A DNA stretch of 64,000 nucleotides from an uncultured Gammaproteobacteria bacterium (GTDB taxonomy: Bacteria > Patescibacteriota > Patescibacteriia > Magasanikbacterales > UBA922). The translations under genes were made by a program, and so were the position numbers. The first letter of the stretch is position 1. The number at the start of each line of letters is the position of its first letter. The stretch is from the NCBI GenBank assembly GCA_964519725.1, contig CAZFKS010000001.1:119270-183269 (forward strand). The letters are read 5' to 3'. The notes under the pieces were generated by a model. That model was given only the letters and a program-made list of their open reading frames with translations, did not search any database and was not told the origin of the DNA. Of this stretch, positions 8,431-49,245 are shown in pieces.

Positions 8431-8438
8431 TTTAAAAT

Positions 8439-8990: not shown

Positions 8991-8991
8991 G

Positions 8992-11931: not shown

Positions 11932-11938
11932 ATATTTA

Positions 11939-15128: not shown

Positions 15129-15129
15129 A

Positions 15130-34960: not shown

Positions 34961-35473
34961 CTAAAAACTCAAAAGCACGGCGCCAAAGAAATAACCCACC
35001 AGCAAAGTAGTAATTGCCCAGGTAAACGCACTCAAAATATTCCACCAAAAAAAATCTTTATATTTCATTTTGGTTAGTCCCGCGATAAACGGGACAATGG
35101 AACGTAAGGGGCCAATAAAACGGGCCAGGAAAACACTTTTAGTACCATGTGCTGCAAAAAATTTTTCACCCTTTTGCAAATGACTAGGTTTAAAAAATTT
35201 ATTGGTTGGTTTGAATAAACCAGTTGAACGTGTGCCAAAATAAAAACTCAAATTATCACCAATAATTGCACCAAGAGTTACAAACCAAATCAAATCTACC
35301 AAATCAAAAGTGCGTTCAGCAGCCAAAAATCCCGCTAACAAAACTAAAGGTGTGCCTGGTACGACGAGCCCAAGCAAACTAGCTGACTCAAACGCAAAAA
35401 TACAAACCATAACCCAGTAACCCCAAAAACCAAGGTTCTGCAAATCAGGTAAAATAGTTTGTAAATAATCCAT
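34961..35473 (-). CDS. DedA/SNARE-associated (TVP38/TMEM64) family membrane protein
   Basis: 170 aa. FESASLLGLVVPG and GPLRSIVPFIAG motifs of the DedA family. 1-nt gap after the P-type ATPase gene. Confidence 0.8.
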   Translation of the reverse strand: MDYLQTILPDLQNLGFWGYWVMVCIFAFESASLLGLVVPGTPLVLLAGFLAAERTFDLVDLIWFVTLGAIIGDNLSFYFGTRSTGLFKPTNKFFKPSHLQKGEKFFAAHGTKSVFLARFIGPLRSIVPFIAGLTKMKYKDFFWWNILSAFTWAITTLLVGYFFGAVLLSF

Positions 35474-35474
35474 A

Positions 35475-38048
35475 TTATTTAGTGTGAGTAGCTAATTCGC
35501 TTTTATTACTAAACCAGTAATAACCACGTTTCACAATTTCCGTAATGAAAAAGTATAGGACCGCGATTACCAGAACAGCAATATAATCTTGTTTTGTCGG
35601 TAAAGTAAATTTGAAAATTTCACGCATGGTTGGAATAAGAGGTAAGGCCAAAGTTACGATCATGGCTGTAATAGTTAGCCAAATAATAGTAAGTGATGGA
35701 CGTTTGGCCTGCCAGCTCCAACCGCGCGCGCGAATTGAGAATAAAAATAATAATTCAGTCACAATACTACCCATGAACCAATTGGTTTGTAGACCCATTG
35801 GCCCTTGACCTTTGAAATAGGCAAAGTAAATAAAATCAAACAGTGAACTAACTAAACCAAGGGTGGTGGCAATGAGCGCAATTTCTTTGATGTCATATTG
35901 TTTTGGTTTTTTAATCGCAGCACCATCCACCCGATCAGTCGCAATCGCAATCATTGGAAAATCAGAGAGTAAATTAAGCAACAAAATTTGAAGCGGCAAC
36001 ATTGGTAAAAAATCAATCAAAAGTGAGGCCACTGCAACGGCGTAAAAATTTCCCAGGTTTGAAGCCAGCGTAGATTTAATGTACGTCAGGGTATTTACAA
36101 ACACTACGCGGCCCTCACGAATACCATCAATGATCACATTTAAACTTTTTTGTAAAAGCACCACGTCCGCAGCTTCACGCGCGACGTCCGAAGCTTCAGC
36201 CACAACGAGTCCAACTTGCGCAATTTTGAGTGCTGGCGCATCATTAATCCCCTCACCCAAAAATCCGACTTGGTGTTTAGTTTGGAGCAGTTGGATGATC
36301 CGATATTTTTCACTTGGATTGACACGCGCAAATACAGCAGTGTTTTCAGCGGCGCGGAGTTGATCAGATTCTGGTAATTTGAGTAAATCCGCGGCTGTTA
36401 AAACCTGATTACTTTCAGTCACCAAACCAACTTCACGGCCAATCGCTTCAGCTACTTCGGCGCCATCACCAGTAATAATTTTAACCGCTACGCCTAGGGC
36501 CTTAGCTTCTGCAATTGCCGCTTTACTAGTTGGTTTTAGTGGATCAACAAATGAAATTAAACCAATTCCTTCAACCCCGTCTTCGGCTTTCACTAAATCC
36601 GCACTATCAGTTTTCTTGGCTTTTTTGGCTGCCACCATAATTACGCGCCGGCCTTTTTTCCCTTCCGCTTCTAGCCAAGCGAGCGCGGTTTTGTCCGTAG
36701 TTTTAATGTCTGATAAAGCCGCCACTTCAGCAAAGGCACCGCGCACAATTAATTTAGTTTGTGTACTCGTGGCACACAAAACTACATTGCGACGCCGGGC
36801 TGGATCAAAGGGTAAATCCGCCAGCATGGAACAAGCACTTAATTTTTGTTTGTCAGTTTTAGATAATTCTTTAGCCAGTGCAATATCAAACGAGTTGTTC
36901 GCTTCTTTGCCAGTTTCGTGCAAAAATGGCGCTGCTTCAGCGGCCGTTAAAATTACCTCGGCTTTTTTGTACGCACCAAATGGCAGAACTTCAGCCACGG
37001 TCAATTCATTTTGCGTAATCGTTCCAGTTTTATCTGAACACAAAATTTCAATCCCACCCAAATCTTCAATGGCTGACAAACGTTTCACGACCACTTTTTT
37101 CTTGGCTAAATGCAAAGCTCCGCGGGACAAAGAAAAAGTTGTCACCACTGGCAAAGCTTCGGGAATCACACTAATCGCGAGCGCAATTGAGAAAATAATT
37201 AGTTCAATTAAATCACTGCGGCTAGCCGATTTAATGGTCACATTGGCAATAAAAACTAATAGCAAGGTGCCAAAAATTAAACGCAAAATAAAGGTACTTA
37301 GACTTTTAATGCCTTTTTCAAAACCACTTTCGCGCACCGTGTCAGCGGCTAAGTGCGCAATACTACCCATCACTGAATTAGCACCAGTCGCTACCACTAC
37401 CGCCGTCGCCTTGCCTTCGACAATGGTTGTACCAGAAAAAACCACATTTGTGCCATCGTACACATCAGTTGGTTTTTTGACTGACTCAATTGTTTTGTTC
37501 ACTGGTACTGATTCACCAGTTAACACAGTTTCATTAACGGTTAAACCCGCAGTAGAAATTACGCGCGCGTCTGCTGGAACAATATCACCAGTTTGTAAAA
37601 TTAAAATATCACCCGGTACTAAATCAGTGCTTGGTACCAAGGTTTCTTTGCCTGCCCGAATGGTGCGCGCTTTAGCCACTACCAGTGAACTCAAAGTGGC
37701 GAGCATTTTTTCTGACCGAAATTCTTGAATAAACCCAAGAACAACATTAATTACAATAAACAAAACAATCATGCACGCATCGATCTTTTCCCCAAACATT
37801 AGTGACAGCGGGACTGTAGCGAGCAAAATATAAATAAACGGCGACGCAAATTGCCGCCAAAGCACATGGTACCAGCGTACTTTTTGTTTTCCTAATTCAT
37901 TTAAACCAAATTTGGTTTGACGCGTTTTAATTTCAGTTTCAGACAAACCAGTTTCAGTGACATTTAAATTATGCAAAACTTCTTCCGCACTCACATGACT
38001 ATATTCCAACCACTTCGCCGTGGTGTTTGGCAAAGTATTTTTTTTCAT
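35475..38048 (-). CDS. cation-transporting P-type ATPase (P2-type, Ca2+/Mg2+-like)
   Basis: Phosphorylation site CSDKTGTITQN, PEALP (PEGL-type) motif, hinge GDGINDAPALK, 10 TM helices, N-terminal cation-ATPase domain. Confidence 0.9.
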   Translation of the reverse strand: MKKNTLPNTTAKWLEYSHVSAEEVLHNLNVTETGLSETEIKTRQTKFGLNELGKQKVRWYHVLWRQFASPFIYILLATVPLSLMFGEKIDACMIVLFIVINVVLGFIQEFRSEKMLATLSSLVVAKARTIRAGKETLVPSTDLVPGDILILQTGDIVPADARVISTAGLTVNETVLTGESVPVNKTIESVKKPTDVYDGTNVVFSGTTIVEGKATAVVVATGANSVMGSIAHLAADTVRESGFEKGIKSLSTFILRLIFGTLLLVFIANVTIKSASRSDLIELIIFSIALAISVIPEALPVVTTFSLSRGALHLAKKKVVVKRLSAIEDLGGIEILCSDKTGTITQNELTVAEVLPFGAYKKAEVILTAAEAAPFLHETGKEANNSFDIALAKELSKTDKQKLSACSMLADLPFDPARRRNVVLCATSTQTKLIVRGAFAEVAALSDIKTTDKTALAWLEAEGKKGRRVIMVAAKKAKKTDSADLVKAEDGVEGIGLISFVDPLKPTSKAAIAEAKALGVAVKIITGDGAEVAEAIGREVGLVTESNQVLTAADLLKLPESDQLRAAENTAVFARVNPSEKYRIIQLLQTKHQVGFLGEGINDAPALKIAQVGLVVAEASDVAREAADVVLLQKSLNVIIDGIREGRVVFVNTLTYIKSTLASNLGNFYAVAVASLLIDFLPMLPLQILLLNLLSDFPMIAIATDRVDGAAIKKPKQYDIKEIALIATTLGLVSSLFDFIYFAYFKGQGPMGLQTNWFMGSIVTELLFLFSIRARGWSWQAKRPSLTIIWLTITAMIVTLALPLIPTMREIFKFTLPTKQDYIAVLVIAVLYFFITEIVKRGYYWFSNKSELATHTK

Positions 38049-38049
38049 A

Positions 38050-38799
38050 CTAAACTAATTTGGCCAACAGAAAAATTAACGTTGACCAGGCCAAGAACGC
38101 ACTCAGTGGCACGCGGTCTAATTTTTCTTGACGTTTTACAAGAGCACATAAAATGGAATACAAGGCAGCGCCAACATAAGCCACGGCTGTGCCAAGCACA
38201 ATTGCATTCCAGCCAATTAAAGCGCCACTGAGCGCTCCAACCCACATATCTTCAGAACTCACCCAGCGCCCGCGCGAGAGTACATATTGCCACAAGAAAA
38301 AACCAGCCGCCACCAGTGCACCAGTGCCACTAGCCGAAAAATTTGGCAACCAACTAGTCTGCAGACTTAGTAATCCAACTAAAACCAAACCAGTAGCCCA
38401 AATCAAGGGTACTGGAATTTCTTGCCAAAAAAAATCGTTCATGACAATGGTGACTAGGCACGCACTAACTACAAAAAATCCAAGCAGTGACCACCAATTC
38501 AATTGCGGCTGGTGGTAAAAAACTCCGGCCCAAATTGAGCCAATTAACACTTCAGCCAGCAGCGAATAGTAAGGTGCATCATGGCCACACTTTTGACATT
38601 TACCGCGTACGATAAAAAACCCTAACACTGGAATCAGGGCCACGGCTGACAGTTGTTTACCACAGTGGTCACACACTGAACGTTGACCAAGTGATTTATT
38701 TTTGTTTGCCTTACTCTGACGCCACGCAAAACACAACAACAGGGACGCTGCAATTGCACCAAAAGCAAATAAAGCCGCACTAATTAAACCGAGCGGCAT
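38050..38799 (-). CDS. pilD: type IV prepilin leader peptidase (A24 family) with N-terminal tetra-Cys domain
   Basis: CDHCGKQL...CQKCGH zinc-binding N-domain followed by polytopic membrane domain. Adjacent to the pilin gene. Confidence 0.75.
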   Translation of the reverse strand: MPLGLISAALFAFGAIAASLLLCFAWRQSKANKNKSLGQRSVCDHCGKQLSAVALIPVLGFFIVRGKCQKCGHDAPYYSLLAEVLIGSIWAGVFYHQPQLNWWSLLGFFVVSACLVTIVMNDFFWQEIPVPLIWATGLVLVGLLSLQTSWLPNFSASGTGALVAAGFFLWQYVLSRGRWVSSEDMWVGALSGALIGWNAIVLGTAVAYVGAALYSILCALVKRQEKLDRVPLSAFLAWSTLIFLLAKLV

Positions 38800-38806
38800 A
38801 AAAAAT

Positions 38807-39247
38807 TTATTGACCGTTTTTAATTACAAATGGATCAACGGCAATTGGTCCGGCTGCGAGTGTATCAGTACCAGCTTCTAAAGTTGCTAAAATTTTGAAT
38901 GTTTTTCCGTCGGTTGAAACATACACATAAGTGCCAGAGCCTGGATCATGTGGAATTACAGGCATGAGCGGTTCTGTACAACCCAGCGGGCCAAAACCAG
39001 TCGCGTTCAAACACACCGCATTACCAACTCCCAGCGGAACACCACCGGGCTGCGTGGTTGGGTAGCTATTGCGCTTGTTGAAATAACTTTCGAGTGCAAA
39101 CCGAACCTGAGTCATGTCTGACAAACGAATCGCATCATTAGCTTTTTTACGCGCTGAGCCAAGCGCAATCACCGCCAGGGTGGACAGTAATGCGATCACA
39201 GCAATAACAACGAGTAATTCAATCAGGGTAAAGCCTTTGCGATTCAT
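38807..39247 (-). CDS. type IV pilin / pseudopilin (prepilin-type N-terminal methylation domain)
   Basis: MNRKGFTLIELLVVIAVIALL class III signal peptide with Glu+5. Confidence 0.85.
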   Translation of the reverse strand: MNRKGFTLIELLVVIAVIALLSTLAVIALGSARKKANDAIRLSDMTQVRFALESYFNKRNSYPTTQPGGVPLGVGNAVCLNATGFGPLGCTEPLMPVIPHDPGSGTYVYVSTDGKTFKILATLEAGTDTLAAGPIAVDPFVIKNGQ

Positions 39248-39255
39248 AAAAATAA

Positions 39256-39651
39256 TTAATGTTTCAAAACTTTTTTAACTTCAGCCACAGTAGCTGAAGG
39301 TCGACAGTGGGCTTTAATTAAGTACGAAGCAGCCCCAAGTTCAAGCCCCTTTTCTACATCTTCTTTTTGCCCCAAATTAGTTAGTAAAATCACGGGAATG
39401 TGCGCAGTACTTTTATCTTTTTTTAATTCTTGCAACACTGCAAAACCATCCAGGTGCGGGAGCAAAATATCGAGCAAAATAATATCTGGTTTTTTCTTGC
39501 GCGCAGCCTCGAGACCGTCTTCACCATTTTCAGCCACTGAAACTTTAAAATCTTCTTGTTCAAATTTCGTGCGGTAGATTGACGCTAAAAAAGTGTCGTC
39601 TTCTACTAGCAAAAGGTGGGTGCTACTCGCCATATAGATACAGTATACCAA
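39256..39651 (-). CDS. single-domain response regulator (CheY/PilH-like receiver)
   Basis: LLVEDD, phospho-acceptor Asp in DIILLDILLP, conserved Thr (LLTNL) and Lys. 131 aa. Confidence 0.85.
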   Translation of the reverse strand: MVYCIYMASSTHLLLVEDDTFLASIYRTKFEQEDFKVSVAENGEDGLEAARKKKPDIILLDILLPHLDGFAVLQELKKDKSTAHIPVILLTNLGQKEDVEKGLELGAASYLIKAHCRPSATVAEVKKVLKH

Positions 39652-39672
39652 AGTGGGAAAATTTAGCTACAG

Positions 39673-40791
39673 TTAAAAATTTCTCAGGGCCAGGCCAATG
39701 GAAACCGCCATCCGGGGCGCCAGGTCATGGAGGAGAGGTTTGAGGCCATCCTGGTACAAAACCCGGGCCCACGGGTCACCAACAAACACCCGGACTGGAA
39801 ATTGGGTTTTTAAGTATTCAACCACTGGCGGAAATTGAGCCGCCCCACCAGTTAAAATAATTTTTTCTGGTTTGCGATTTTCATTGCCAGTCTGGCTCAG
39901 GTACAAATCAAAGTGGTACTGAATTTCTTTGGCCAGTGGTTCCAGGAATCTAATAAATGGTTCAGACGTAACTAACGCACTTGAAATATTGGAGACATCG
40001 TGCTTGAGTAATTGGGCCTGTTTCAAATTAACCCCAAGTCTCTCGGCAATCACCGAATCTAAAATTGAACCACCCAATTGCAAACTCCGCTGAGTCATTG
40101 GCAAGCCTTTATCAATGAGGGAAAAATTGGTGCGTTCAGCGCCAATGTCAACCACCATGGTCAAGGCCTCATCTTTACCAACCAGTGACCGGGCCAAAGC
40201 AAAGGCTTCAGTTTCTAATTCTTGTAAACTTAAACCAGCTTGTTGAAAAATACGGGTGTAAAACATGACCATGTTTTTTGGCGCGGCTGTGACCAGTAAA
40301 CGGATATAATGTTTTTTTAATTCTTCACTAAGCGGCACTGGCTGATACACAATTTGCATGTCATCCAAAGATTGAGGCAAAACTTTAGCTACCTCAGCGC
40401 GGACCAACTTATCAATTTCTTTTTCTGGAACTTGAGGCAAATTAATAATGGTGTGAAAAACATGAGACACCGGCAAACTAGAGGCAGCGCGCTGGCCCAC
40501 AACCTTAGCTTTTTTAATTAAATCCTTAAGAAGCAAACCGTAGTGATCAGCCCGTTCCGCACTAAATTCATCGGCTTCGGATAGAACTGATTTTTTGGAC
40601 ATGGTTTTTCCAGTTGGACTGAGGGGCGCGGTTTCAGTTGCTGTCGCGTGAATCGCAATTTTTTCTTCAGCAATGCCATAAGTCCACAGCTGTGGGCGCG
40701 CTTTGGTTCGACGAAGTTCAACTAATTTAATTCCCTCTGCGCCAATATCAACGCCAATGTATGATTCAATTTTATTTCCAAATAGTCCCAT
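39673..40791 (-). CDS. pilM: type IV pilus assembly protein PilM (actin-like ATPase fold)
   Basis: GVDIGAEGIKLVEL N-terminal phosphate-1 motif, internal VVDIGAERTNFSLI. 372 aa. Pilus gene context. Confidence 0.7.
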   Translation of the reverse strand: MGLFGNKIESYIGVDIGAEGIKLVELRRTKARPQLWTYGIAEEKIAIHATATETAPLSPTGKTMSKKSVLSEADEFSAERADHYGLLLKDLIKKAKVVGQRAASSLPVSHVFHTIINLPQVPEKEIDKLVRAEVAKVLPQSLDDMQIVYQPVPLSEELKKHYIRLLVTAAPKNMVMFYTRIFQQAGLSLQELETEAFALARSLVGKDEALTMVVDIGAERTNFSLIDKGLPMTQRSLQLGGSILDSVIAERLGVNLKQAQLLKHDVSNISSALVTSEPFIRFLEPLAKEIQYHFDLYLSQTGNENRKPEKIILTGGAAQFPPVVEYLKTQFPVRVFVGDPWARVLYQDGLKPLLHDLAPRMAVSIGLALRNF

Positions 40792-40821
40792 AACAATGAT
40801 TTGGCTAAGTATACCACAAAC

Positions 40822-42033
40822 TTACTCGCGACGGCGAAATAGTAACCACAAAAAGAGGACAAGTATAATTCCTCCTCCAGCTAAAACTGGAATTTTGTGG
40901 GCCAGGAAAAAATTTTGTGCTTGGAGTGAAAAACTTTCAGCGGGGATCAGCGGGGCTTTATCTTTTCCATCTGGTGTGCCATCTAAGTCAGTGTCTTCGG
41001 CTAGCGGATCAGTCCCCTTCACGGTTTCATCATGGTCAGAAATACCATCGTTGTCTGTGTCTGGAGTGCGTGGACTGGTACCAATTTTTTGTTCTTCAGT
41101 ATCAGGTAAATGATCATTATCATCGTCCAGATCAGCGTTATCCCCAGTTCCATCTTTGTCTGAGTCTTTATTTTCCTTTGGATCAAGCGGTAATTCATCC
41201 GCCCCATCATTCACACCATCGCCATCAGTATCAGCTTTGAGCGGATCAGTACCCTTGGCTTTTTCCGCCTCATCAGTCACACCATCATTATCATCATCAG
41301 GGTCAGTGTTGTCCCCAATTTTATCACCATCAATATCTTTTTGTTCTTTGGGATCAATTGGAAATAAATCATCTTTATCATTTACCCCATCACCGTCAGT
41401 GTCAGTCGCCATTGGGTTGGTTTTATTGTCTAATTCAGTGTTATCTGGAATGCCATCACCATCGGTGTCAGCTTTTTTTGGGTCAGTACCTAATTCTTTT
41501 TCGCGGTCATCAGTTAGACCGTCATTATCATCATCAGGGTCAGTGTTGTCACCAATTTTGTCATGGTCAGAATCAGCTTCAATGGTAAATTTTGATGGAG
41601 TTTGGGAAGATTGAATTTGATTGTCAGGTAGCACTTGTTTGTCGCCATTCGCTTGCAAACCAACCACACTAGTTAACCGCGCTGTCAAAGATAATTCACC
41701 CGCGGGCAAGGTATATTCGGCGGCCACTTGTTTAGCTTGCTCAAATAAAATTTTTTCAAATGGCACCTCAGCAATGACCTGATCATTATTATAAAACACC
41801 ACCTTCCCCGACACTGACGCAAAATCATTATTTACAATTACCGTGTAGAGTTTTACCACTTCTCCTTCCACCGCATTAGTTTTTGACAACCGTACAATTT
41901 GGTTAACAGCAAAATCAAACGCTGCCCAAGTTGTGACTGGGGCAAAAAATAATACTAAAGTACTCAATCCGACCAAATACTTAAGGCGTTTCATACTGGA
42001 GCTGACTAGGCGAAAGTGAAAATAGTATATCAC
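40822..42033 (-). CDS. secreted Ca-binding repeat protein (about 9 thrombospondin type-3-like DxDxDG repeats) with C-terminal hydrophobic anchor and RRRE tail
   Basis: Signal peptide. N-terminal about 150-aa beta-rich domain. Repeats DTDGDGV(N/P)D, DIDGDKIGDNTDPDDDNDG. C-terminus LAGGGIILVLFLWLLFRRRE. Confidence 0.7.
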   Translation of the reverse strand: MIYYFHFRLVSSSMKRLKYLVGLSTLVLFFAPVTTWAAFDFAVNQIVRLSKTNAVEGEVVKLYTVIVNNDFASVSGKVVFYNNDQVIAEVPFEKILFEQAKQVAAEYTLPAGELSLTARLTSVVGLQANGDKQVLPDNQIQSSQTPSKFTIEADSDHDKIGDNTDPDDDNDGLTDDREKELGTDPKKADTDGDGIPDNTELDNKTNPMATDTDGDGVNDKDDLFPIDPKEQKDIDGDKIGDNTDPDDDNDGVTDEAEKAKGTDPLKADTDGDGVNDGADELPLDPKENKDSDKDGTGDNADLDDDNDHLPDTEEQKIGTSPRTPDTDNDGISDHDETVKGTDPLAEDTDLDGTPDGKDKAPLIPAESFSLQAQNFFLAHKIPVLAGGGIILVLFLWLLFRRRE

Positions 42034-42925
42034 CTTGCTGGTCAGTCCGTAAAACCTGACAATTATGGCGTTCGAGGCGTTTTAAAACCCGCGGCGCGGG
42101 GTGACCATAGGCATTATCTTTGCCCACTGAAATTAAACAATATTTAGGCGCGACCGCATTTAAAAATAAATCACTCGACGAGGTTAAACTACCATGATGC
42201 CCAACTTTGAGCAGCTCAGCCTCCAGTCCACCACCCAGTTTACTGACTAAATAATTTTCCAGCGGCGCCTCAGTATCGCCAGTCAGCAAAATATCATTGG
42301 TTCCAGCTGAAAGTTTCACGACCATGGATGTGTCATTGCTTTCCACCACATTGGTTTTAGGAATGCGCGGGTCGCGGGCCACATCATGGTCAGGGTACAA
42401 AATCGTGGTAGTCACGCCTGCAATTACAAAATTTTGGGCAGTGGTAATTTTTTCCACAACCGAACCACTGGCTTCAGCCTCATGCACCTTGTTCATAAAT
42501 GAAGTCCAGAGTGGCCCACTATTTTTTTCATAGCCAGTAAGGAAAATTTTTTTGACTGTGTAACGAGAAAGCACATCAATACACCCAGCGTAGTGATCAG
42601 AGTCAGGGTGAGTGACAATTAAATAGTCGAGAGTGCGGTCATTCCAGTGCCGCACCCGTGACAAAGCTGACAACACCACCGCGTCACGCGCACAATCAAC
42701 GAGTAGCTCTTCGCCATTTGGAAAAACTACCAAGGTCGCATCACCTTGGCCAACATCCAAAAAATACACTTGAGCTGGTTTGTCTTGAGTACTAGTATCC
42801 CCCACCTTAATATCCTCTATTTTAGGCCGGGCAAATGTAACCGTAATTATTTTTTTGGATTCCAAAAACCTGACTATTCCGATTAGCAATAACAAAACTA
42901 GCAAAATACTAAGTAGCTTTTTCAT
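41981..42925 (-). CDS. standalone MBL-fold hydrolase of the ComEC C-terminal (Lactamase_B) type, signal-anchored
   Basis: VYFLDVGQGDATLVVFPNGEELLVDCARD and LIVTHPDSDHYAG, HHGS motifs as in ComEC/Rec2 C-terminal domains. Confidence 0.75.
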   Translation of the reverse strand: MKKLLSILLVLLLLIGIVRFLESKKIITVTFARPKIEDIKVGDTSTQDKPAQVYFLDVGQGDATLVVFPNGEELLVDCARDAVVLSALSRVRHWNDRTLDYLIVTHPDSDHYAGCIDVLSRYTVKKIFLTGYEKNSGPLWTSFMNKVHEAEASGSVVEKITTAQNFVIAGVTTTILYPDHDVARDPRIPKTNVVESNDTSMVVKLSAGTNDILLTGDTEAPLENYLVSKLGGGLEAELLKVGHHGSLTSSSDLFLNAVAPKYCLISVGKDNAYGHPAPRVLKRLERHNCQVLRTDQQGDILFSLSPSQLQYETP

Positions 42926-42931
42926 ACCTCC

Positions 42932-43546
42932 TTATTTAGTGGCGCAAATAATTTGGTTTACCCAAACGCCATTTTCTGAAATTATTTTTTCTTCAACTCC
43001 AAACGCCAGGTCTTCGAGCAGCTCTTTGATTGCTTCTTTCCGGTGATAAAATGACTCAACCACAATTGGTCCAACCTTAGTTTCCACCACTGGCGGGTCA
43101 GTTTGGTTAATATTAGTTACTAAAAATTTTCCCCCATCTTTGAGCACCCGATACACTTCATCAAAAAAGCGGCGCGGATTTTTTAGGTGAACAATCAAAA
43201 ATGCAGCGGTAATAATATCAAAAGAGTTATCGGGAAATGGCAAGGCTTCAGCCTCACCAACCACAGTTTTGATATGTTTATTTTTTCGGTTTAAAACCTT
43301 TAACATTTCCTCTGACACATCCAGGGCCGTTACTTCTGCTCCAACTTGGACTAATAAAATGGATAACCGGCCAGTTCCCGCCCCAACATCAAGCACACTT
43401 TTGCCTTTTAAATCACCCAGAATTGGTAAAACTGCGTTTTTTTCAAAACTATTTAAGTACGGTATTTTTTTATCATAAGCACTACTGGCTAAATCATAAC
43501 CAGTCACTGAGTCAAGCACTTTGACTTTACTTTTTCCCATACACAA
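42932..43546 (-). CDS. class I SAM-dependent methyltransferase
   Basis: Motif I VLDVGAGTGRLS, motif post-I LDVSEEM. 204 aa. Confidence 0.8.
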   Translation of the reverse strand: MCMGKSKVKVLDSVTGYDLASSAYDKKIPYLNSFEKNAVLPILGDLKGKSVLDVGAGTGRLSILLVQVGAEVTALDVSEEMLKVLNRKNKHIKTVVGEAEALPFPDNSFDIITAAFLIVHLKNPRRFFDEVYRVLKDGGKFLVTNINQTDPPVVETKVGPIVVESFYHRKEAIKELLEDLAFGVEEKIISENGVWVNQIICATK

Positions 43547-44120
43547 TCAGTGGGATCACGGCACTAATAACGGCAAAATATAACATTGCCTTGATCGTAG
43601 CCGACAGAGTTGAGAAATTACTACTACTTCCAGTTAGTTCAATATTTTTACCACTCACCGCGGCTGTTAAAATATTTTTCACAATCTCACGGTCAGTTTC
43701 GGTCAGAACAGAAATTACGAGGGGCACTTTTTTACCGGAATTTAAAGTGACCAGAGCCAGTAAACGCGGTACTCTCACTGTCACCCCATTTTGGGCCACA
43801 GTTCGGAGACTATTGGTAATCTCATAACTCTTAATTTCTTTAAGTGGGATTTTAGTCGACCAAACAATTTGATGTTGGACAATTTCAGCATTATTAACAC
43901 TAACCACTCCGTGAGCACGGACTCGACCCACAATTAAACCAGTTACCACCACGAGCAAGAACCACAGGGCCAATTTACTCATTTGAGAACTAGGATTTTT
44001 TAAAAATTCAATCAGCCAACTACCGCCCAGTAAGAATACTGCGAAAGTAAATAGCAAAGCAACGCTAATCACCAAAATATTATGGTACTCACTGCGAGTG
44101 TCAAAGATGAGGCCGGGCAT
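43527..44120 (-). CDS. hypothetical membrane protein (two N-terminal TM helices; possible bacterial PH/DUF304-like domain)
   Basis: 197 aa. 20-nt overlaps with both neighbours. No catalytic motif. Confidence 0.35.
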   Translation of the reverse strand: MPGLIFDTRSEYHNILVISVALLFTFAVFLLGGSWLIEFLKNPSSQMSKLALWFLLVVVTGLIVGRVRAHGVVSVNNAEIVQHQIVWSTKIPLKEIKSYEITNSLRTVAQNGVTVRVPRLLALVTLNSGKKVPLVISVLTETDREIVKNILTAAVSGKNIELTGSSSNFSTLSATIKAMLYFAVISAVIPLIVYGKK

Positions 44121-45603
44121 AGGCTTTTTTAAAAATGAGGTAGAGTAAAATTAAGTAGCTCGTGATTAATAGGGGCAAGGAAAATGAAACTGCGGGCGCG
44201 GCCCAACTAATTCCCCCAAACCATGAAACTACGCTAATAACATACCACATTCCCGCCCACCCAATCCAGGCCAGGGCCTGACCCACGTAAATATGGATTA
44301 AACTGCCAAGGAGGGCAGCAAAACCAGTGGCCATTAAAATTGGGATCACCCACAACACCGCAATGTTCACAAAAATAGTGAGTAGGGCAAGCCGACCAAA
44401 CTGAAATAAAATTAAGGGCAAAGTTGCAATCGTCGCAGCTGTGGTTGAAATAGTATTTTCCCTGAGACCAAATTTTTCTGGAAGCCAATTTAAGTAAGTT
44501 TCCAAAATTGGATTTAAATATACCAAACCCAAAGTGGCCAAAAATGAAAGTTGGAATCCAGCATCATACAGTAGCACCAATGGATTTTGTACTGTCATAA
44601 TCACAGCCGTGAGGAGTAACACCGGTCCAATTCGACTGACGCGCCCAACTTGTTTGGCCAAAAGCACAATAAAGCCCATAATTCCCGCCCGCATCACAGA
44701 AGCAGATGCGCCGGTAAAAATCACAAACACAAAAATATACAAACCAACCACATAAAAAGCGTGCCGCCGATTAATGCGGCAGTAATAACAGATTGATAAG
44801 AGTAAAGTCGCAATCACGGAAATATTAAATCCTGATACGGCCACAATGTGCGCGACTCCGGTTTTACTGAACAAATCATTGAGTGGCCCCAGTCCACCGC
44901 GATATCCGTAAAGTAATCCAGCCATAAAACTGGCATAGGGTTCTGGCCAGAGTGCTTCTAAGCGCAGCGCTAATTGATTTTTAAAAGCTAAAATATAGCT
45001 CATGACTGGGTTAGCTCCTCCACTGCCAATTTTAGTGAGGATTGGTTTTTGGCAGAGTGCAAAAATGTCTTGCCTGGCCAAAGCCAAGTCATACCGAAAC
45101 ACTTTTCCATTCACTTCATCAACAATTGGTTCTGGTTTTTTAATAGTGCAAGTAACCTTAAGAACATCGCCGTAATTAAACCGTGGATACCGATCAAAAA
45201 CCGCTAAAATATTACCCTCAATTTCACCTGGCCCAGCCCGGGCCTCGACGCTACTTGCGTCTAGCACATATCGCACTGAATCCAAGCGCACATCAGGTTC
45301 AGCGTTTACGGTTCCAATCAATTGAATATTTTGGTTATTAAACGCCTCAATTCTTCCAGTCTCACTAACTGGAAAGACTAATCCATAGCGATAAATTCCT
45401 AAACCAAAACTAGTAACGATTAATACTATGAATTTAATTTCTAGTTTTTTAATAAAAAATAAAATTAAAACAGACACCAAAACGGCAGATAAAATCCAAT
45501 TGGTTTTTCGAATGTCACTAATTGAGGCAACTATAGTGCCAATCAAAAAACTAAAAGAATAGATTGCAAAACGCCAGCTTTTTGAGGTTATTTTGTTTAT
45601 CAT
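44101..45603 (-). CDS. comEC: ComEC/Rec2 membrane channel part (DUF4131 + Competence domain), lacking the MBL domain
   Basis: 500 aa polytopic. Competence-domain motif KTGVAHIVAVSGFNISVIA. Confidence 0.8.
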   Translation of the reverse strand: MINKITSKSWRFAIYSFSFLIGTIVASISDIRKTNWILSAVLVSVLILFFIKKLEIKFIVLIVTSFGLGIYRYGLVFPVSETGRIEAFNNQNIQLIGTVNAEPDVRLDSVRYVLDASSVEARAGPGEIEGNILAVFDRYPRFNYGDVLKVTCTIKKPEPIVDEVNGKVFRYDLALARQDIFALCQKPILTKIGSGGANPVMSYILAFKNQLALRLEALWPEPYASFMAGLLYGYRGGLGPLNDLFSKTGVAHIVAVSGFNISVIATLLLSICYYCRINRRHAFYVVGLYIFVFVIFTGASASVMRAGIMGFIVLLAKQVGRVSRIGPVLLLTAVIMTVQNPLVLLYDAGFQLSFLATLGLVYLNPILETYLNWLPEKFGLRENTISTTAATIATLPLILFQFGRLALLTIFVNIAVLWVIPILMATGFAALLGSLIHIYVGQALAWIGWAGMWYVISVVSWFGGISWAAPAVSFSLPLLITSYLILLYLIFKKAYARPHL

Positions 45604-45653: not shown

Positions 45654-45720
45654 ATGAAGTTCATCCTTCTGCCTGTGGCAGTCGAGATTCCTCACCCTCC
45701 GGTGAGGTTATTTTTTTATT
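45654..45720 (+). ncRNA. candidate about 65-nt sRNA (or leaderless 22-codon micro-ORF MKFILLPVAVEIPHPPVRLFFY) ending in an intrinsic terminator, convergent with the MazF-like gene
   Basis: Promoter at 45621-45648. Internal hairpin ctgcc-tgt-ggcag. Terminal hairpin cctcacc-ctcc-ggtgagg followed by ttatttttttatt. Confidence 0.3.
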
Positions 45721-46106
45721 AGAGTACACAGTAATTGCTTTAAATTTTCAGTCGTCTCTCTGCTAACAAATGAGAGTTTTCTTTTTAATCTTTTTCCATC
45801 AAGATACCGCGCTTGTGCTAGACAAGCGTACTGAACTCGCCCTCTGTCATCATGAAACCGTGCGTAATAATCTCCGAACTTCTCAGACGTAGTTAATGGG
45901 ATCACTAAGCAAGCGTCACCGTACACTTTTTGGATAATCAAAATCGGACGAAGAAATTCAGAACCCTTACCATCTAACTCAGTCGCTACATTTAAACCTA
46001 AATGTGCCCACCAAATTTGTCCAATTTTAAATTTTGGACAACCTTCGAAAGAGTTTACGGTTTTCTTTTTTTCATTCCATTCATTGAAATTTTTATAATT
46101 TTCCAT
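45708..46106 (-). CDS. MazF/PemK-like (Kid-fold) putative toxin, no adjacent antitoxin gene
   Basis: From internal ATG (MENYK...). FKIGQIWWAHLGLNVATELDGKGSEFLRPILIIQKVYGDACLVIPLTTS matches the MazF/PemK core (G.I...G.E..g.RP.lii....v.PlTt). The table ORF start upstream is a TTG overlapping leuS. Confidence 0.45.
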   Translation of the reverse strand: MENYKNFNEWNEKKKTVNSFEGCPKFKIGQIWWAHLGLNVATELDGKGSEFLRPILIIQKVYGDACLVIPLTTSEKFGDYYARFHDDRGRVQYACLAQARYLDGKRLKRKLSFVSRETTENLKQLLCTLIKK

Positions 46107-46176
46107 AGCAAAAAACACAGATCTAATCTGTATTTTCTTCCCTCCTTTAGAGAAGAAATATAGTAATTTTATTGTA

Positions 46177-46214
46177 AAACAAAACACTGCTCGATTCAAG
46201 CAGTGTTTTTTATT
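46177..46214. terminator. strong bidirectional hairpin terminator between leuS and the MazF-like gene
   Basis: Perfect 11-bp stem aaaacactgct/agcagtgtttt with 7-nt loop, flanked by an A-run and a T-run. Confidence 0.55.
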
Positions 46215-46248
46215 TTGTGTGTAAAAACTGTGCGCAAGCTGTGAACAA

Positions 46249-49245
46249 TCACACAACAATTGAAATCAAACGGCCTGGAACATAAATAAATTTCTTTGGT
46301 TCTTTACCTTCCAACCATTTTTGCACACCTTCATTTTCTAAAGCTAATTTTTTAATATCAGCTTCGGCAATGTCTGGTGATACTGTTAATTCAGCGCGAA
46401 CTTTACCATTAATTTGAATGGCGATTATCACTTCACTATCTTTGGCGAGTTCAGCATCATAAACCGGCCAAGTCGATTTAGAAACAGAATTTCCATCACC
46501 AAATTGGGCCCATAATTCTTCACCAATGTGCGGGGCAAACACTGACAACAATTTAATTAAAATTTGGTAATCAGTTTTTGCAATTTTTTCCTCAACACTC
46601 ATCGCGTTCGCCAGTTCCATTAATTTCGCCACCGAGGTATTGAAGCTCATGTTCTGAATATCATCAGTGACTTTTTTGATTGTTTGGTGAAGCTGAGTAA
46701 CCACTTTTTTATTGGTCGCCGCACTATCACTCACCTTTTCCTGTAAATTCCAAACCTTATCCAGGAACCGACGCACACCAACTAATCCATTGGTATCCCA
46801 TTCCACAGCTTGGTCAAATGGACCCATAAACATAATATAAGTGCGAAGCGCGTCTGCACCGTACAGTTCAACCATTTCATCTGGGTTCACCACGTTTCCC
46901 TTTGACTTACTCATCTTTTCACCGCCCTTGGCCAAAATCATGCCGTGACTGGTGCGTTTTTTGTATGGTTCGAGAGTTGGGACCACGCCAATGTCATACA
47001 AGAATTGATTCCAAAAACGGGAATACAACAAGTGTAAAACCGTGTGCTCCATTCCCCCATTGTACCAATCCACTTGATTCCAATAGCGTAAATTTGGATT
47101 AATCTTTTCAACCCACTCAGACAAGAAAGCAATTTTTTCTTGATTACTTTGGCCGTCTGACTCGTTTTTCTCAGTGTATTCGTAATGTGCCAAATTATAT
47201 TCTGGTGAAATAGTGCGGAAAGTAAAGCCCCACAAATTTCCCAAACACACTTCTGGTAAATCGCGAGCTTGCATTGGTTGTTTGGCACCTTGGTAAGTCA
47301 AACTATACATTTCGCCGTTCTCTTTCCAAACCGGAACAATTTCTACACGCACTCCATCTTTTTCGTACAGATCATTTTGGTTAAATGATTGAGTTAACCT
47401 ATAGCCTTGCTCCACCAAATAACTCGCAATCGCCGCCTTATCATCATTCCAAGCGACTAAACAAACCGTGCGCAATGGTGTCCACAAATTGCGGTTCAAG
47501 CCGTTCAAAAGTAAACGATTCCCAGTCCAAACTTTAATTCCCTTTTTCTCTAAATCTTGATATACCTGTTTAAAAGTAGCAAAATAAGCTTTATCTTTTT
47601 CGGTCGGTTCAATCGCTGGACGGAATTTAAAACCATCGGTACGGAATAAATCTTTCGCATTCTGCGGATCCATGTAGCGGAGGAAGTACCAACTTGACCC
47701 AGCCCAGTTAGGCATGGTGTCAGTTTCGCGGCGTGCCGGACCACCACACTTTGGACAAGTAGTTTTAACCCACTCAGTCATGGCCGCGATTGGCGACTCG
47801 CCAGTATCAGTTGGTAAATATTTTTCCACTTTTGGTAATTCGAGTGGTAATTCACTTTCTGGAAGTGGAATCCAACCATTACAATTTTCACAAAAAACCA
47901 AAGGAATCGGCTCACCCCAATACCGCTGACGCGAAAAGACCCAGTCACGGAGTTTGTACTGCACTTTGCGGTTACCAATTTTATTTTCTTCTAGCCAAGC
48001 AACCATTTTAGCTTTGGCCTCAACGGTTTCTAAGCCATTCAAAAAATCTGAATTAACAGCGAACCCAGCAGAAGTGAAGGCTTCAGTGGCAATATCACCA
48101 CCGGCAACCACTTCTACTTTTGGCAAATGATATTTACTCGCAAATTCAAAGTCGCGCTCATCATGCGCTGGTACCGCCATAATCGCGCCCGTACCATAAC
48201 CACCCAGGACATAATCAGCCACAAACATTGGAATTTGTTCGCCTGTAACCGGATTAATGGCTTTAACACCACGGAGTTCCACACCGGTCTTTTCTTTATC
48301 AAGCGCACTGCGCTCAATATCAGTTTTTTGTTTAGCAGCGTTAACATAAGCCAACACTTCGGCTTTGTTTTCCAAAACATCATGATTTTGATCAGTCGCC
48401 AAAGTCACCCACAAATGTTCAGGGGCAAGCACCAAATAGGTGGCACCAAACAGCGTGTCTGGACGCGTAGTAAATACAGTCAATTTTGCTTTTTCACCAT
48501 TTGGTCCACGACGATCATTATCAGCCGGATTTTTGGTAAAAAATAATTCAAAATTAATTTCTGCACCCTCACTCCGCCCAATCCAATTTTCCTGTTGAAT
48601 TTTGGCGCGAGAAATATAATCAACTTCATTTAAACCCGCGAGAAGTTTGTCAGCGTATTTGGTGATCGCGAGCATCCATTGTTCTTTATTCCGTTTTTCT
48701 ACTGGATTGCCACAACGCTCACAACAGCCATCAACCACTTCTTCATTAGCTAGACCAATTTTATCTTTTGGACACCAATTAATTGGCTGGTTGGCTTTGT
48801 AGGCCAAACCTTGTTTGTAAAGCTGCAAAAAAATCCACTGTGTCCATTTATAATATTCAGGTTCACTAGTAGTCACCGCGCGCGACCAATCAAAACCAAA
48901 CCCCAGCGCTTTTAATTGACGCGTAAAGTTCGCAATATTTTCAGCCGTAATTTCCGCTGGTGGCCGACCAGTTTTAATGGCAAAATTTTCAGTTGGCAGT
49001 CCAAACGAGTCAAACCCAATTGGATACAAAACATTTTTTCCTTCCATCCGTTTTTGGCGTGTAATTACATCCATGGCAGTGTAAGACCGCGGGTGTCCAA
49101 CGTGTAAACCAGCCCCACTTGGGTAAGGGAACTCAATCAGACCAAAAAATTTTTCTTTGGCCGGATCAGTTTCCACGCGAAAAGTCTGGTTATCTTCCCA
49201 GAATTTTTGCCACTTTGGTTCAATGGATTTTGGGTCGTACTTCAT
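46249..49245 (-). CDS. leuS: leucyl-tRNA synthetase (long form with extra insertion before the catalytic-core return)
   Basis: HIGH motif PYPSGAGLHVGHP, KMSKS motif KMSKSKGN, CP1 editing domain. 998 aa. Confidence 0.95.
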   Translation of the reverse strand: MKYDPKSIEPKWQKFWEDNQTFRVETDPAKEKFFGLIEFPYPSGAGLHVGHPRSYTAMDVITRQKRMEGKNVLYPIGFDSFGLPTENFAIKTGRPPAEITAENIANFTRQLKALGFGFDWSRAVTTSEPEYYKWTQWIFLQLYKQGLAYKANQPINWCPKDKIGLANEEVVDGCCERCGNPVEKRNKEQWMLAITKYADKLLAGLNEVDYISRAKIQQENWIGRSEGAEINFELFFTKNPADNDRRGPNGEKAKLTVFTTRPDTLFGATYLVLAPEHLWVTLATDQNHDVLENKAEVLAYVNAAKQKTDIERSALDKEKTGVELRGVKAINPVTGEQIPMFVADYVLGGYGTGAIMAVPAHDERDFEFASKYHLPKVEVVAGGDIATEAFTSAGFAVNSDFLNGLETVEAKAKMVAWLEENKIGNRKVQYKLRDWVFSRQRYWGEPIPLVFCENCNGWIPLPESELPLELPKVEKYLPTDTGESPIAAMTEWVKTTCPKCGGPARRETDTMPNWAGSSWYFLRYMDPQNAKDLFRTDGFKFRPAIEPTEKDKAYFATFKQVYQDLEKKGIKVWTGNRLLLNGLNRNLWTPLRTVCLVAWNDDKAAIASYLVEQGYRLTQSFNQNDLYEKDGVRVEIVPVWKENGEMYSLTYQGAKQPMQARDLPEVCLGNLWGFTFRTISPEYNLAHYEYTEKNESDGQSNQEKIAFLSEWVEKINPNLRYWNQVDWYNGGMEHTVLHLLYSRFWNQFLYDIGVVPTLEPYKKRTSHGMILAKGGEKMSKSKGNVVNPDEMVELYGADALRTYIMFMGPFDQAVEWDTNGLVGVRRFLDKVWNLQEKVSDSAATNKKVVTQLHQTIKKVTDDIQNMSFNTSVAKLMELANAMSVEEKIAKTDYQILIKLLSVFAPHIGEELWAQFGDGNSVSKSTWPVYDAELAKDSEVIIAIQINGKVRAELTVSPDIAEADIKKLALENEGVQKWLEGKEPKKFIYVPGRLISIVV

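What the first reader, a model, noticed from the sequence alone, without database searches (positions are those of the whole stretch)
38050..45603. DNA-uptake island with a split ComEC
The ComEC channel (DUF4131 + Competence domain, 500 aa) and a signal-anchored ComEC-type MBL domain (314 aa) are separate genes. A membrane protein and a SAM methyltransferase lie between them. They are followed by a surface repeat protein, pilM, a receiver-only response regulator, a pilin, a prepilin peptidase, a P-type cation ATPase and DedA. The split ComEC architecture with intervening genes, and the tight linkage of a Ca/Mg-type pump to pilus genes, are unusual. They could reflect a lineage-specific DNA or nucleotide scavenging apparatus.
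Basis: partly seen in the sequence, partly recalled or inferred. Interest (0 to 1): 0.5.

Follow-up and report, generated by a model that had tools for sequence, protein, structure and literature searches.

The report
Two-gene ComEC in a Patescibacterium
The DNA-import channel ComEC really is encoded here as two genes (channel, and a membrane-anchored nuclease), but this is the usual arrangement in this group of tiny bacteria, and the neighbouring pilus and ion-pump genes are mostly accidental neighbours.

Summary
All nine genes at 38050-45603 (minus strand) have the stated domains. The 314-aa MBL protein is a ComEC C-terminal nuclease domain: it matches TIGR00361 positions 440-663 (E 4e-41), its six best PDB sequence matches are all ComEC, and its best fold match is the ComEC nuclease domain 9ic4. 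The seven residues shown by mutagenesis to matter are conserved.

The 500-aa protein and the MBL protein together tile a full-length ComEC. The break lies in the cytoplasmic loop before the last transmembrane helix (TM11). The MBL "signal anchor" aligns with that helix.

The split is not peculiar to this genome, which is Magasanikbacteria-like. In 39 of 45 Patescibacteria-type loci, a ~500-aa ComEC gene lies upstream, on the same strand, of a ~290-aa standalone MBL gene. In 13 loci the two are directly adjacent.

The intervening genes vary by lineage: methyltransferase, superoxide dismutase, NUDIX, RNase III. The pilus genes recur in 2 loci and the Mg-type ATPase in 1. Composition and flanking synteny show no island.

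Best reading: a two-subunit ComEC, with co-function inferred. This is a modest new variant, because the absence of the fused form in CPR is already published.

The parts
44101..45603 (-). ComEC subunit 1 (500 aa): N-terminal TM helices, OB fold (DUF4131) and Competence channel domain. It ends in the cytoplasmic loop after the penultimate TM helix.
   Evidence: Pfam PF03772 148 bits and PF13567 46 bits. TIGR00361 positions 124-404. Residues 85-487 align to residues 80-485 of full-length ComEC 30bt_A. Junction alignment with fused ComECs.
41981..42925 (-). ComEC subunit 2 (314 aa): TM anchor (residues ~2-23, homologous to ComEC TM11), a low-confidence linker (~24-49) and the beta-lactamase-like nuclease domain (50-310).
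   Evidence: TIGR00361 positions 440-663, E 3.6e-41. PDB 9ic4 at 8e-23; 30bt_A residues 534-791. AF2 pLDDT 92, helix 2-23. Foldseek top hit 9ic4. H106, D108, D110, H111, D217, H243 and S246 are conserved; they correspond to H598/D600/D602/H603/D700/H725/S728 of PMC12455585.
43527..44120 (-). 197-aa membrane protein lying between the two ComEC genes: two TM helices, a PH-like beta domain and a C-terminal TM. It is restricted to a narrow clade and its role is unknown.
42932..43546 (-). Class I SAM-dependent methyltransferase (Methyltransf_11/UbiE-like) inserted between the ComEC genes. It is probably not part of the machinery.
   Evidence: Pfam. Best PDB relatives are small-molecule and phosphoethanolamine methyltransferases. 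Found at this position only in L007-L009, L082 and L083. No DNA-methyltransferase family among the matches listed (NCBIfam best 25 of 69).
40822..41994 (-). Membrane-anchored surface protein with bacterial TSP3 (Ca-binding type) repeats. Its likely ATG at 41994 overlaps the MBL stop by 14 nt. It is a conserved downstream neighbour within Magasanikbacteria.
   Evidence: PF18884, 4 repeats. Signal peptide and C-terminal TM. Follows the MBL in L001, L002 and L006-L009.
39673..40791 (-). PilM-like actin-fold pilus assembly protein (neighbour).
   Evidence: PF11104 117 bits. TIGR01175 126.9 bits against a cut-off of 133. Orthologues at this position only in L001 and L003.
39256..39651 (-). Receiver-only response regulator; the likely start is the ATG at 39633. 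It is a recurrent neighbour of the MBL gene in several ABY1-type lineages.
   Evidence: PF00072 86 bits. Lies just downstream of the MBL in L012, L016 and L041, and 1.5-2.1 kb downstream in L031 and L062, followed by Ndk in L016, L031, L041 and L062.
38807..39247 (-). Type IV pilin / pseudopilin (neighbour).
   Evidence: N_methyl motif KGFTLIELLVV. 80% identical to the L001 pilin and 61% to the L003 pilin.
38050..38799 (-). Prepilin peptidase (PilD-like) with a divergent catalytic domain (neighbour).
   Evidence: A24_N_bact 60 bits; Peptidase_A24 18 bits, below the 26.5 cut-off. Both candidate catalytic Asp and the CxxC...CxxC motif are conserved with L001 and L003.
35475..38048 (-). MgtA-like P-type cation ATPase. 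It lies outside the stated coordinates and is judged an incidental neighbour.
   Evidence: TIGR01524 576.7 bits against a cut-off of 610.75. Adjacent to PilD only in L001; L003 has DNA ligase there.

Best explanation
The window comes from a Magasanikbacteria-like member of the Patescibacteria (CPR). Its ComEC is encoded as two polypeptides.

- Subunit 1 (500 aa) carries the N-terminal TM helices, the extracytoplasmic OB fold and the channel-forming Competence domain. It ends in the short cytoplasmic loop that separates TM10 from TM11 in full-length ComEC.
- Subunit 2 (314 aa) starts in that same loop. Its N-terminal helix is the counterpart of TM11. A ~25-residue flexible linker follows, and then the Mn-type beta-lactamase-like nuclease domain, which is therefore displayed outside the membrane as in fused ComEC.

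Inferred mechanism:
1. The two subunits assemble in the membrane.
2. The nuclease sits at the channel mouth, positioned by the OB-fold loop.
3. The nuclease degrades the non-translocated DNA strand while the other strand passes through the channel.

The arrangement is ancestral and widespread in Patescibacteria. The genes between the two halves (here a PH-like membrane protein and a SAM methyltransferase) are later, lineage-specific insertions. The downstream TSP3 protein, PilM, response regulator, pilin and PilD are conserved only in close relatives. The Mg-type ATPase and DedA are ordinary neighbours in a very compact, single-strand genome.

Shown: homology, tiling, split point, conservation of catalytic residues, and synteny. 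Inferred: physical association and joint function in DNA uptake.
For: Homology and tiling.
- Subunit 1 matches TIGR00361 positions 124-404 and subunit 2 matches positions 440-663.
- Subunit 1 residues 85-487 align to residues 80-485 of cryo-EM ComEC 30bt_A. Subunit 2 residues 50-309 align to residues 534-791 of the same chain.

Split point.
- In an alignment with six fused ComECs, subunit 1 ends (KKAYARPHL) in the basic loop after the penultimate TM. Subunit 2's MKKLLSILLVLLLLIGIVRFL aligns with the last TM, which immediately precedes DVGQGD.
- The published structure places a short cytoplasmic helix between TM10 and TM11. It describes TM11 as peripheral and mobile, and the nuclease as tethered by a flexible linker and positioned by a small OB-loop interface (PMC13539106).

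Structure and catalytic residues.
- The AF2 model has pLDDT 92, with helix 2-23 and a disordered stretch at 32-43. Its best fold match is the ComEC nuclease domain 9ic4.
- The equivalents of the mutationally essential H598/D600/D602/H603/D700/H725/S728 (PMC12455585) are present in the window protein. D110, H111, D217, H243, H244 and S246 are invariant in all 82 sequences compared, whereas H106 and D108 vary in a minority.

Synteny.
- 39 of 45 CPR-type loci have ComEC upstream on the same strand, 33 of them within 2 kb.
- 13 loci have the two genes directly adjacent or overlapping, with gaps of -25 to +28 nt.
- The top 120 database relatives of the MBL are all 276-334 aa. Fused 690-860-aa forms appear only in non-CPR loci.
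- Gene junctions in the window overlap or are at most 6 nt apart from ComEC to the TSP3 gene.
Against: - No direct evidence shows that the two proteins bind each other or that this organism takes up DNA.
- Six of 45 CPR-type loci have the MBL without ComEC nearby.
- Firmicutes carry standalone ComEC-type MBLs, in one case next to a complete fused ComEC (L054). Such MBLs can therefore act on their own.
- In Southlakia epibionticum, the only genetically tested CPR, the 482-aa DC-type ComEC supports transformation. No MBL gene lies next to it, and the gene table names no ComEC-type MBL. A partner nuclease may therefore not be obligatory.
- The NJ tree has no support values.
- Labels on many MAG loci are unreliable.
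- The locus sample was retrieved with patterns taken from this MBL family, so it is biased towards genomes that have the standalone gene.
Confidence: 0.65

Rival explanations
1. The 314-aa protein descends from ComEC but now works alone. It would be a membrane-anchored extracellular nuclease or phosphodiesterase that digests environmental or host DNA for nucleotide salvage. The 500-aa ComEC would import DNA without it. Adjacency would be only a relic of the ancestral fission.
For: - Standalone ComEC-type MBLs exist without a nearby ComEC in 6 CPR-type loci and in many Firmicutes loci. One sits beside a complete fused ComEC.
- Neighbours in some loci are nucleotide-metabolism genes: Ndk, NUDIX and NrdD/NrdG.
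- The isolated ComEC nuclease domain is active in vitro (PMC8579336, PMC12455585).
- A CPR DC-type ComEC works in transformation with no adjacent MBL.
Against: - The anchor helix is retained as the homologue of ComEC TM11, rather than being replaced by a cleavable signal peptide.
- Same-strand linkage persists in 39 of 45 loci despite repeated insertions of unrelated genes.
- Start and stop codons overlap in the closest relatives.
Confidence: 0.2
2. The whole block from ComEC to the P-type ATPase and DedA would be one co-regulated, lineage-specific DNA-uptake and scavenging apparatus. The pilus genes, response regulator and Mg/Ca pump would be functional parts.
For: - No gap exceeds 40 nt from ComEC to DedA.
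- The same order, including the ATPase, is present in L001.
- Type IV pili are known partners of ComEC in DNA uptake (PMC10633639, PMC6744442).
Against: - The pilus genes follow the MBL in only 2 of the related loci, and the ATPase in 1. L003 has DNA ligase after PilD.
- No PilB, PilC, PilT, ComEA, DprA or ComF is present in the window.
- Short gaps are the genome norm (median 8 nt).
- Promoter and terminator scans are not above shuffled controls.
- The ATP synthase operon and LeuRS/GDH flank the block, and composition is uniform.
Confidence: 0.1
3. The methyltransferase and the MBL would form a surface-modification pair: phosphocholine-type decoration and its esterase. The idea rests on the methyltransferase resembling phosphoethanolamine N-methyltransferases and the MBL fold resembling the pneumococcal phosphorylcholine esterase Pce.
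For: The methyltransferase's best PDB matches are phosphoethanolamine N-methyltransferases, E 1.6e-19. Pce is the second-best fold match of the MBL model.
Against: - The MBL is far closer to ComEC domains (84 bits against 32 bits for Pce; 29% against 16% identity).
- Pce is the nearest non-ComEC neighbour of every ComEC nuclease domain (PMC12455585).
- The methyltransferase is present in only a minority of loci.
- The methyltransferase match covers only the generic SAM-binding core.
Confidence: 0.03
4. The split is an artefact: a frameshift, an assembly error or a decaying pseudogene.
For: None found.
Against: - 1.2 kb containing two conserved genes separates the halves.
- The same split recurs in dozens of independent assemblies.
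- Both ORFs are intact and have conserved functional residues.
Confidence: 0.01

Closest known systems
Full-length three-domain ComEC/Rec2 (e.g. Neomoorella carbonis cryo-EM structure 30bt; Bacillus subtilis ComEC; nuclease domain 9ic4)
   Same: It has the same three modules in the same order: OB fold, Competence channel and beta-lactamase-like nuclease. It has the same H-x-D-x-D-H motif and the other residues shown to matter by mutagenesis. The predicted topology is the same, with the nuclease outside the membrane, tethered through the last TM helix and a flexible linker.
   Different: The polypeptide is broken in the TM10-TM11 cytoplasmic loop. Here the two genes are separated by two other genes. 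The linker is ~20 residues longer than in the fused forms aligned. Neither half reaches the TIGR00361 equivalog cut-off.
DC-type ComEC (DUF4131 + Competence, no nuclease domain), e.g. Southlakia epibionticum SEML1_0777, required for natural transformation in Saccharibacteria
   Same: It is also a CPR organism. Size (482 aa against 500 aa) and domain content match subunit 1 (PMC10633639).
   Different: In S. epibionticum the neighbours are YebC and tRNA-Lys, and the gene table names no ComEC-type MBL. Here, and in most Paceibacteria/ABY1-type loci, a ComEC-type nuclease gene accompanies the channel gene.
EndA of Streptococcus pneumoniae (membrane-bound nuclease acting in trans with ComEC)
   Same: It is the precedent for degradation of the non-transforming strand by a separately encoded, membrane-anchored nuclease (PMC8579336, PMC12455585).
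   Different: As far as I know EndA is not an MBL-fold enzyme and does not derive from ComEC (not tested here). The protein here is the ComEC nuclease domain itself, including ComEC's own last TM helix.
Standalone ComEC-like MBL proteins of Firmicutes (e.g. loci L033, L054, L056, L063)
   Same: They belong to the same MBL subfamily and share the same invariant catalytic residues.
   Different: They form a separate clade in the NJ tree. They are not linked to a DC-type ComEC, and they can coexist with a fused ComEC.

Membership tests
ComEC/Rec2 DNA internalisation protein | Competence (channel) domain PF03772 | tested here: met
   148.4 bits against a cut-off of 23, covering residues 230-491 of the 500-aa protein.
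ComEC/Rec2 DNA internalisation protein | N-terminal OB fold (DUF4131, PF13567) | tested here: met
   46.4 bits against a cut-off of 31.6, covering residues 36-182.
ComEC/Rec2 DNA internalisation protein | Beta-lactamase-like nuclease domain with H-x-D-x-D-H and the D700/H725/S728 equivalents | tested here: met
   The domain is present, but on the separate 314-aa protein. It matches TIGR00361 positions 440-663. H106, D108, D110, H111, D217, H243 and S246 are all present. The best fold match is 9ic4.
ComEC/Rec2 DNA internalisation protein | All domains on one polypeptide that reaches the TIGR00361 equivalog cut-off (190 bits) | tested here: not met
   The two proteins score 40.6 and 141.1 bits. 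The two ORFs are separated by 1.2 kb.
ComEC/Rec2 DNA internalisation protein | Required for DNA uptake or transformation | not testable with these tools
   This needs genetics or uptake assays. The only CPR evidence is for a Saccharibacterium (PMC10633639).
Type IV pilus / competence pilus locus | Prepilin with a class III signal (N_methyl) | tested here: met
   PF07963 33 bits and TIGR02532 30.8 bits; motif KGFTLIELLVV.
Type IV pilus / competence pilus locus | Prepilin peptidase with two catalytic Asp | tested here: inconclusive
   A24_N_bact scores 60 bits. Peptidase_A24 scores only 18.1 bits against a cut-off of 26.5. Both candidate Asp are conserved among the three orthologues.
Type IV pilus / competence pilus locus | Extension ATPase (PilB/ComGA) and platform protein (PilC/ComGB) in the locus | tested here: not met
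   Neither was found among the ORFs scanned, which are nearly all ORFs of 100 aa or more in the 64-kb window.
MgtA-type Mg2+ P-type ATPase | Score above the TIGR01524 equivalog cut-off | tested here: inconclusive
   576.7 bits against a cut-off of 610.75. General P-type ATPase membership is clear (TIGR01494, 246.9 bits against 62.3).
Horizontally acquired genomic island | Deviant composition, mobility genes or tRNA border, and a break in synteny | tested here: not met
   GC is 0.40-0.45, the same as the flanks. tRNAs occur only at 58.3 kb. GDH-LeuRS-ComEC and the ATP synthase flanks are conserved in relatives.
Pce-type phosphorylcholine esterase | Closest similarity to Pce/CbpE rather than to other MBLs | tested here: not met
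   Pce scores 32 bits against 84 bits for the ComEC domain. The fold-search E-value is 1e-16 for Pce against 9e-26 for the ComEC domain.

The most novel reading that the evidence does not exclude
In most Patescibacteria outside Saccharibacteria, and perhaps in other bacteria whose ComEC 'lacks' the C-terminal domain, the ComEC nuclease is a separately encoded, detachable subunit that keeps ComEC's own last TM helix as its anchor. This would answer, for a very large part of bacterial diversity, the open question of how the non-transforming strand is degraded when ComEC has no nuclease domain. It would also provide a natural split point for reconstituting and dissecting ComEC. A detachable nuclease might further let the cell switch between importing one strand (transformation) and digesting DNA for nucleotides.
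Probability: 0.45. Interest if true: 0.55.

Novelty: new variant of a known kind. Interest (0 to 1): 0.38.

Why it matters
ComEC is the universal DNA-entry channel of natural transformation. Reviews and structural papers state that roughly half of ComEC proteins lack the nuclease domain, and that how the other strand is removed in those organisms is unknown (PMC8579336).

This locus and 39 related ones show that in a large radiation of uncultured bacteria the nuclease is not missing. It is encoded next door as a separate, membrane-anchored protein, split off exactly at the mobile last helix.

That has three consequences:
- It gives a testable two-subunit model.
- It provides a natural design for split-protein experiments.
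- It warns domain-based surveys, which count these genomes as 'nuclease-less', that they may be miscounting.

It does not support the idea of a special DNA-uptake island that includes an ion pump.

Tried and rejected
- Promoter and terminator scans of 33.5-50.5 kb found 37 promoter-like and 27 terminator-like sites, against 34 and 20 in shuffles. They give no usable operon boundaries. The hairpin at 45690-45707 has its T-run on the non-coding strand only.
- Rfam found only the two tRNAs.
- The 197-aa protein has no Pfam or NCBIfam family and no relative in the 80 GTDB loci, even at E 10. Its fold is only generically PH-like, which gives no function.
- The afdb50 fold library was unavailable.
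- I considered co-folding the two ComEC halves. I did not attempt it, because the structure tool takes one chain, accepts only window or database sequences, and returns no coordinates or inter-domain error. Docking could not have been judged.
- I considered a DNA-methylation role for the methyltransferase and rejected it. The matches listed are to small-molecule and other non-DNA methyltransferase families.
- I considered a functional role for the genes between the halves in general and rejected it. In other lineages the position holds superoxide dismutase on the opposite strand, NUDIX or RNase III.
- Four literature searches found no paper in the held library that describes a two-gene ComEC. 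That library is incomplete.

Full report
**What is in the window**

All genes of the finding lie on the minus strand. In the direction of transcription they are:

| Coordinates | Gene |
|---|---|
| 46249-49245 | LeuRS |
| 45708-46259 | PemK-like ORF |
| 44101-45603 | ComEC with DUF4131 + Competence, 500 aa |
| 43527-44120 | 197-aa membrane protein, no family |
| 42932-43546 | class I SAM methyltransferase |
| 41981-42925 | 314-aa MBL protein |
| 40822-42033 | TSP3-repeat protein with signal peptide and C-terminal anchor (likely start 41994) |
| 39673-40791 | PilM |
| 39256-39651 | receiver-only response regulator |
| 38807-39247 | pilin |
| 38050-38799 | prepilin peptidase |
| 35475-38048 | MgtA-like P-type ATPase |
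| 34961-35473 | DedA |
| below 34863 | F-type ATP synthase operon |

**Is the 314-aa protein a ComEC domain?**

Yes, on four lines of evidence.
- Its best NCBIfam match is the ComEC/Rec2 model, positions 440-663 of 663, at E 3.6e-41.
- Its six best matches among all PDB sequences are ComEC proteins or the isolated ComEC nuclease domain, 9ic4 at E 8e-23. Unrelated MBLs such as Pce score 32 bits or less.
- An AlphaFold2 model (pLDDT 92) finds 9ic4 as the top structural match, with E 9e-26 and TM 0.85. Pce is second. That is the same order reported for the real ComEC domain (PMC12455585).
- The residues whose mutation abolishes nuclease activity and transformation are H598, D600, D602, H603, D700, H725 and S728. 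They correspond to H106, D108, D110, H111, D217, H243 and S246 here. Six catalytic-site residues (D110, H111, D217, H243, H244, S246) are invariant in all 82 sequences compared; H106 and D108 are substituted in a minority of them.

**Where exactly is the break?**

The 500-aa protein aligns to residues 80-485 of the 801-aa cryo-EM ComEC (30bt_A). The 314-aa protein aligns to residues 534-791 of the same chain.

I aligned the concatenated pair with six fused ComECs from other phyla. The 500-aa protein stops in the short basic loop after the penultimate TM helix. The N-terminal helix of the 314-aa protein aligns with the last TM helix, which in fused proteins directly precedes the DVGQGD start of the nuclease domain.

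The published structure fits this split point:
- It has 11 TM helices, with a short cytoplasmic helix between TM10 and TM11.
- It describes TM11 as peripheral and mobile.
- It describes the nuclease as tethered by a flexible linker and held by a small interface with an OB-fold loop.

The two genes therefore encode every element of ComEC, cut at a place where a cut preserves topology. The so-called signal anchor is ComEC's own TM11. This point is shown by alignment. Physical re-association of the halves is inferred.

**How unusual is it?**

It is not unusual for the lineage. The 120 best database relatives of the MBL are all 276-334 aa. Where they are named, they come from Candidatus Magasanikbacteria or other Patescibacteria. 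JGI already labels several of them 'competence protein ComEC'.

A scan of one genome per GTDB species returned 80 loci.
- Of 53 Patescibacteria-type loci, 45 have at least 3.3 kb of upstream sequence.
- In 39 of these a ~490-550-aa ComEC gene lies upstream on the same strand.
- In 33 it lies within 2 kb.
- In 13 loci the two genes abut or overlap, with gaps of -25 to +28 nt. These include the closest relatives L001, L002, L003, L005 and L006.

Fused 690-860-aa proteins occur only in non-CPR loci: Dehalococcoidia, Ignavibacteria, Bacteroidetes and Gemmatimonadota.

[quoted passage not shown] I found no paper in the held library stating that the domain is encoded separately next to the channel gene.

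Two caveats apply. Many MAG labels are unreliable. The sample was also retrieved with motifs from this very family.

**The genes in between**

In other lineages the space between the two halves holds unrelated genes:
- a Fe/Mn superoxide dismutase on the opposite strand (14 loci);
- a NUDIX hydrolase;
- RNase III.

The methyltransferase occupies this position in L007-L009 and in three Logan contigs. The 197-aa protein has only four relatives in 5.8 billion sequences, and those for which a contig was examined (L081-L083) lie at the same position. It has a strongly conserved core and a PH-like fold between TM helices.

These are best read as insertions into a conserved gene pair. A role for the PH-like protein cannot be excluded.

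**The pilus genes, the regulator and the pump**

PilM, the response regulator, the pilin and PilD follow the MBL only in L001 and L003. The P-type ATPase follows only in L001. In L003 PilD is followed by NAD-dependent DNA ligase.

The TSP3 protein follows the MBL in six Magasanikbacteria-type loci. A receiver-only regulator lies just downstream of the MBL in L012, L016 and L041 and 1.5-2.1 kb downstream in L031 and L062; in L016, L031, L041 and L062 it is followed by Ndk.

No PilB, PilC, PilT, ComEA, DprA or ComF is present in the 64-kb window.

Gaps from ComEC to DedA never exceed 40 nt. This is not specific to the block, however. The whole window has a median same-strand gap of 8 nt, is 93% coding and has 54 of 61 genes on one strand. 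GC is uniform, and the GDH-LeuRS-ComEC flank is conserved in relatives.

There is thus no island, and the pump linkage is incidental.

**Function**

The best-supported model is a two-subunit ComEC, with the nuclease working at the mouth of the channel as in fused ComEC.

The main rival is that the MBL now works alone as a surface nuclease. Several observations favour it:
- Six CPR-type loci and many Firmicutes loci have the MBL without a linked channel gene.
- One Bacillota locus has a standalone MBL beside a complete fused ComEC.
- The only genetically tested CPR bacterium uses a 482-aa DC-type ComEC for transformation. No MBL lies next to it, and that gene was dispensable for growth.

This last observation also weakens the nucleotide-scavenging reading.

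**Verdict**

The finding is an ordinary lineage-typical architecture. One point is useful and, to my knowledge, undescribed: the ComEC nuclease of most Patescibacteria-type genomes sampled is a separately encoded subunit, split at the TM10-TM11 loop and usually linked to the channel gene.

Noticed in passing
window 6589-16821: A low-GC block (0.34-0.38, against ~0.43 elsewhere) carries defence-type genes. These are a Schlafen-like helicase, a YgjP-like metallopeptidase, type I restriction-modification genes HsdR/HsdS/HsdM (HsdM with an N-terminal MerR HTH), a PIN-domain protein and a 301-aa protein with no family. This block, not the ComEC region, looks like an acquired island.
   Followed up: partly
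window 41981-42925 (residues C78 and C115): Two cysteines in the nuclease domain occur together only in the Magasanikbacteria-clade sequences (10 of 54 CPR-type sequences). Elsewhere these positions are G/A and L/F. This may be a lineage-specific disulfide in the extracytoplasmic domain.
   Followed up: partly
window 42926-42934: The methyltransferase stop codon TAA is followed directly by GGAGGT and then the MBL ATG. The Shine-Dalgarno-like motif therefore ends only 1 nt before the start codon, which is unusually close.
   Followed up: no
L013, L014, L017, L022, L023, L025, L037, L042, L046, L055, L061, L072, L073 (between ComEC and MBL); L011: A ~200-aa Fe/Mn superoxide dismutase gene on the opposite strand sits immediately upstream of the MBL in 14 Paceibacteria-type loci. 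It keeps this position in L011, where ComEC is 8 kb away.
   Followed up: partly
L016 10813-11871; L041 10818-11869; L062 5540-6725; L031 12066-13073: A receiver-only response regulator, 45-53% identical to the window's, followed by nucleoside diphosphate kinase, recurs just downstream of the MBL in several ABY1-type lineages.
   Followed up: partly
L054 2495-3187 and 4075-6495: A Bacillota MAG carries a 303-aa standalone ComEC-type MBL about 1 kb upstream of a complete fused 806-aa ComEC. Firmicutes standalone MBLs form their own clade in the NJ tree.
   Followed up: no
window 42932-43546 and 41981-42925: The methyltransferase's best solved relatives are phosphoethanolamine N-methyltransferases. 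The MBL's second-best fold neighbour is the phosphorylcholine esterase Pce. I judge this a coincidence of generic folds.
   Followed up: partly
window 45708-46259: A PemK/MazF-like toxin domain occupies residues 80-180 of an ORF that overlaps the end of leuS by 11 nt. No obvious antitoxin gene is present. A GC-rich hairpin (45690-45707) lies just after its stop.
   Followed up: no
window 25551-26099 (+ strand): A SET-domain protein is one of only seven plus-strand genes in the window.
   Followed up: no
L024 5250-8077: Anaerobic ribonucleotide reductase NrdD and its activase lie directly upstream of a standalone ComEC-type MBL that has no ComEC nearby.
   Followed up: no
L062 4830-5510: A type IV secretion system pilin (PF18895) lies between the MBL and the response regulator in a Falkowbacteria locus.
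   Followed up: no
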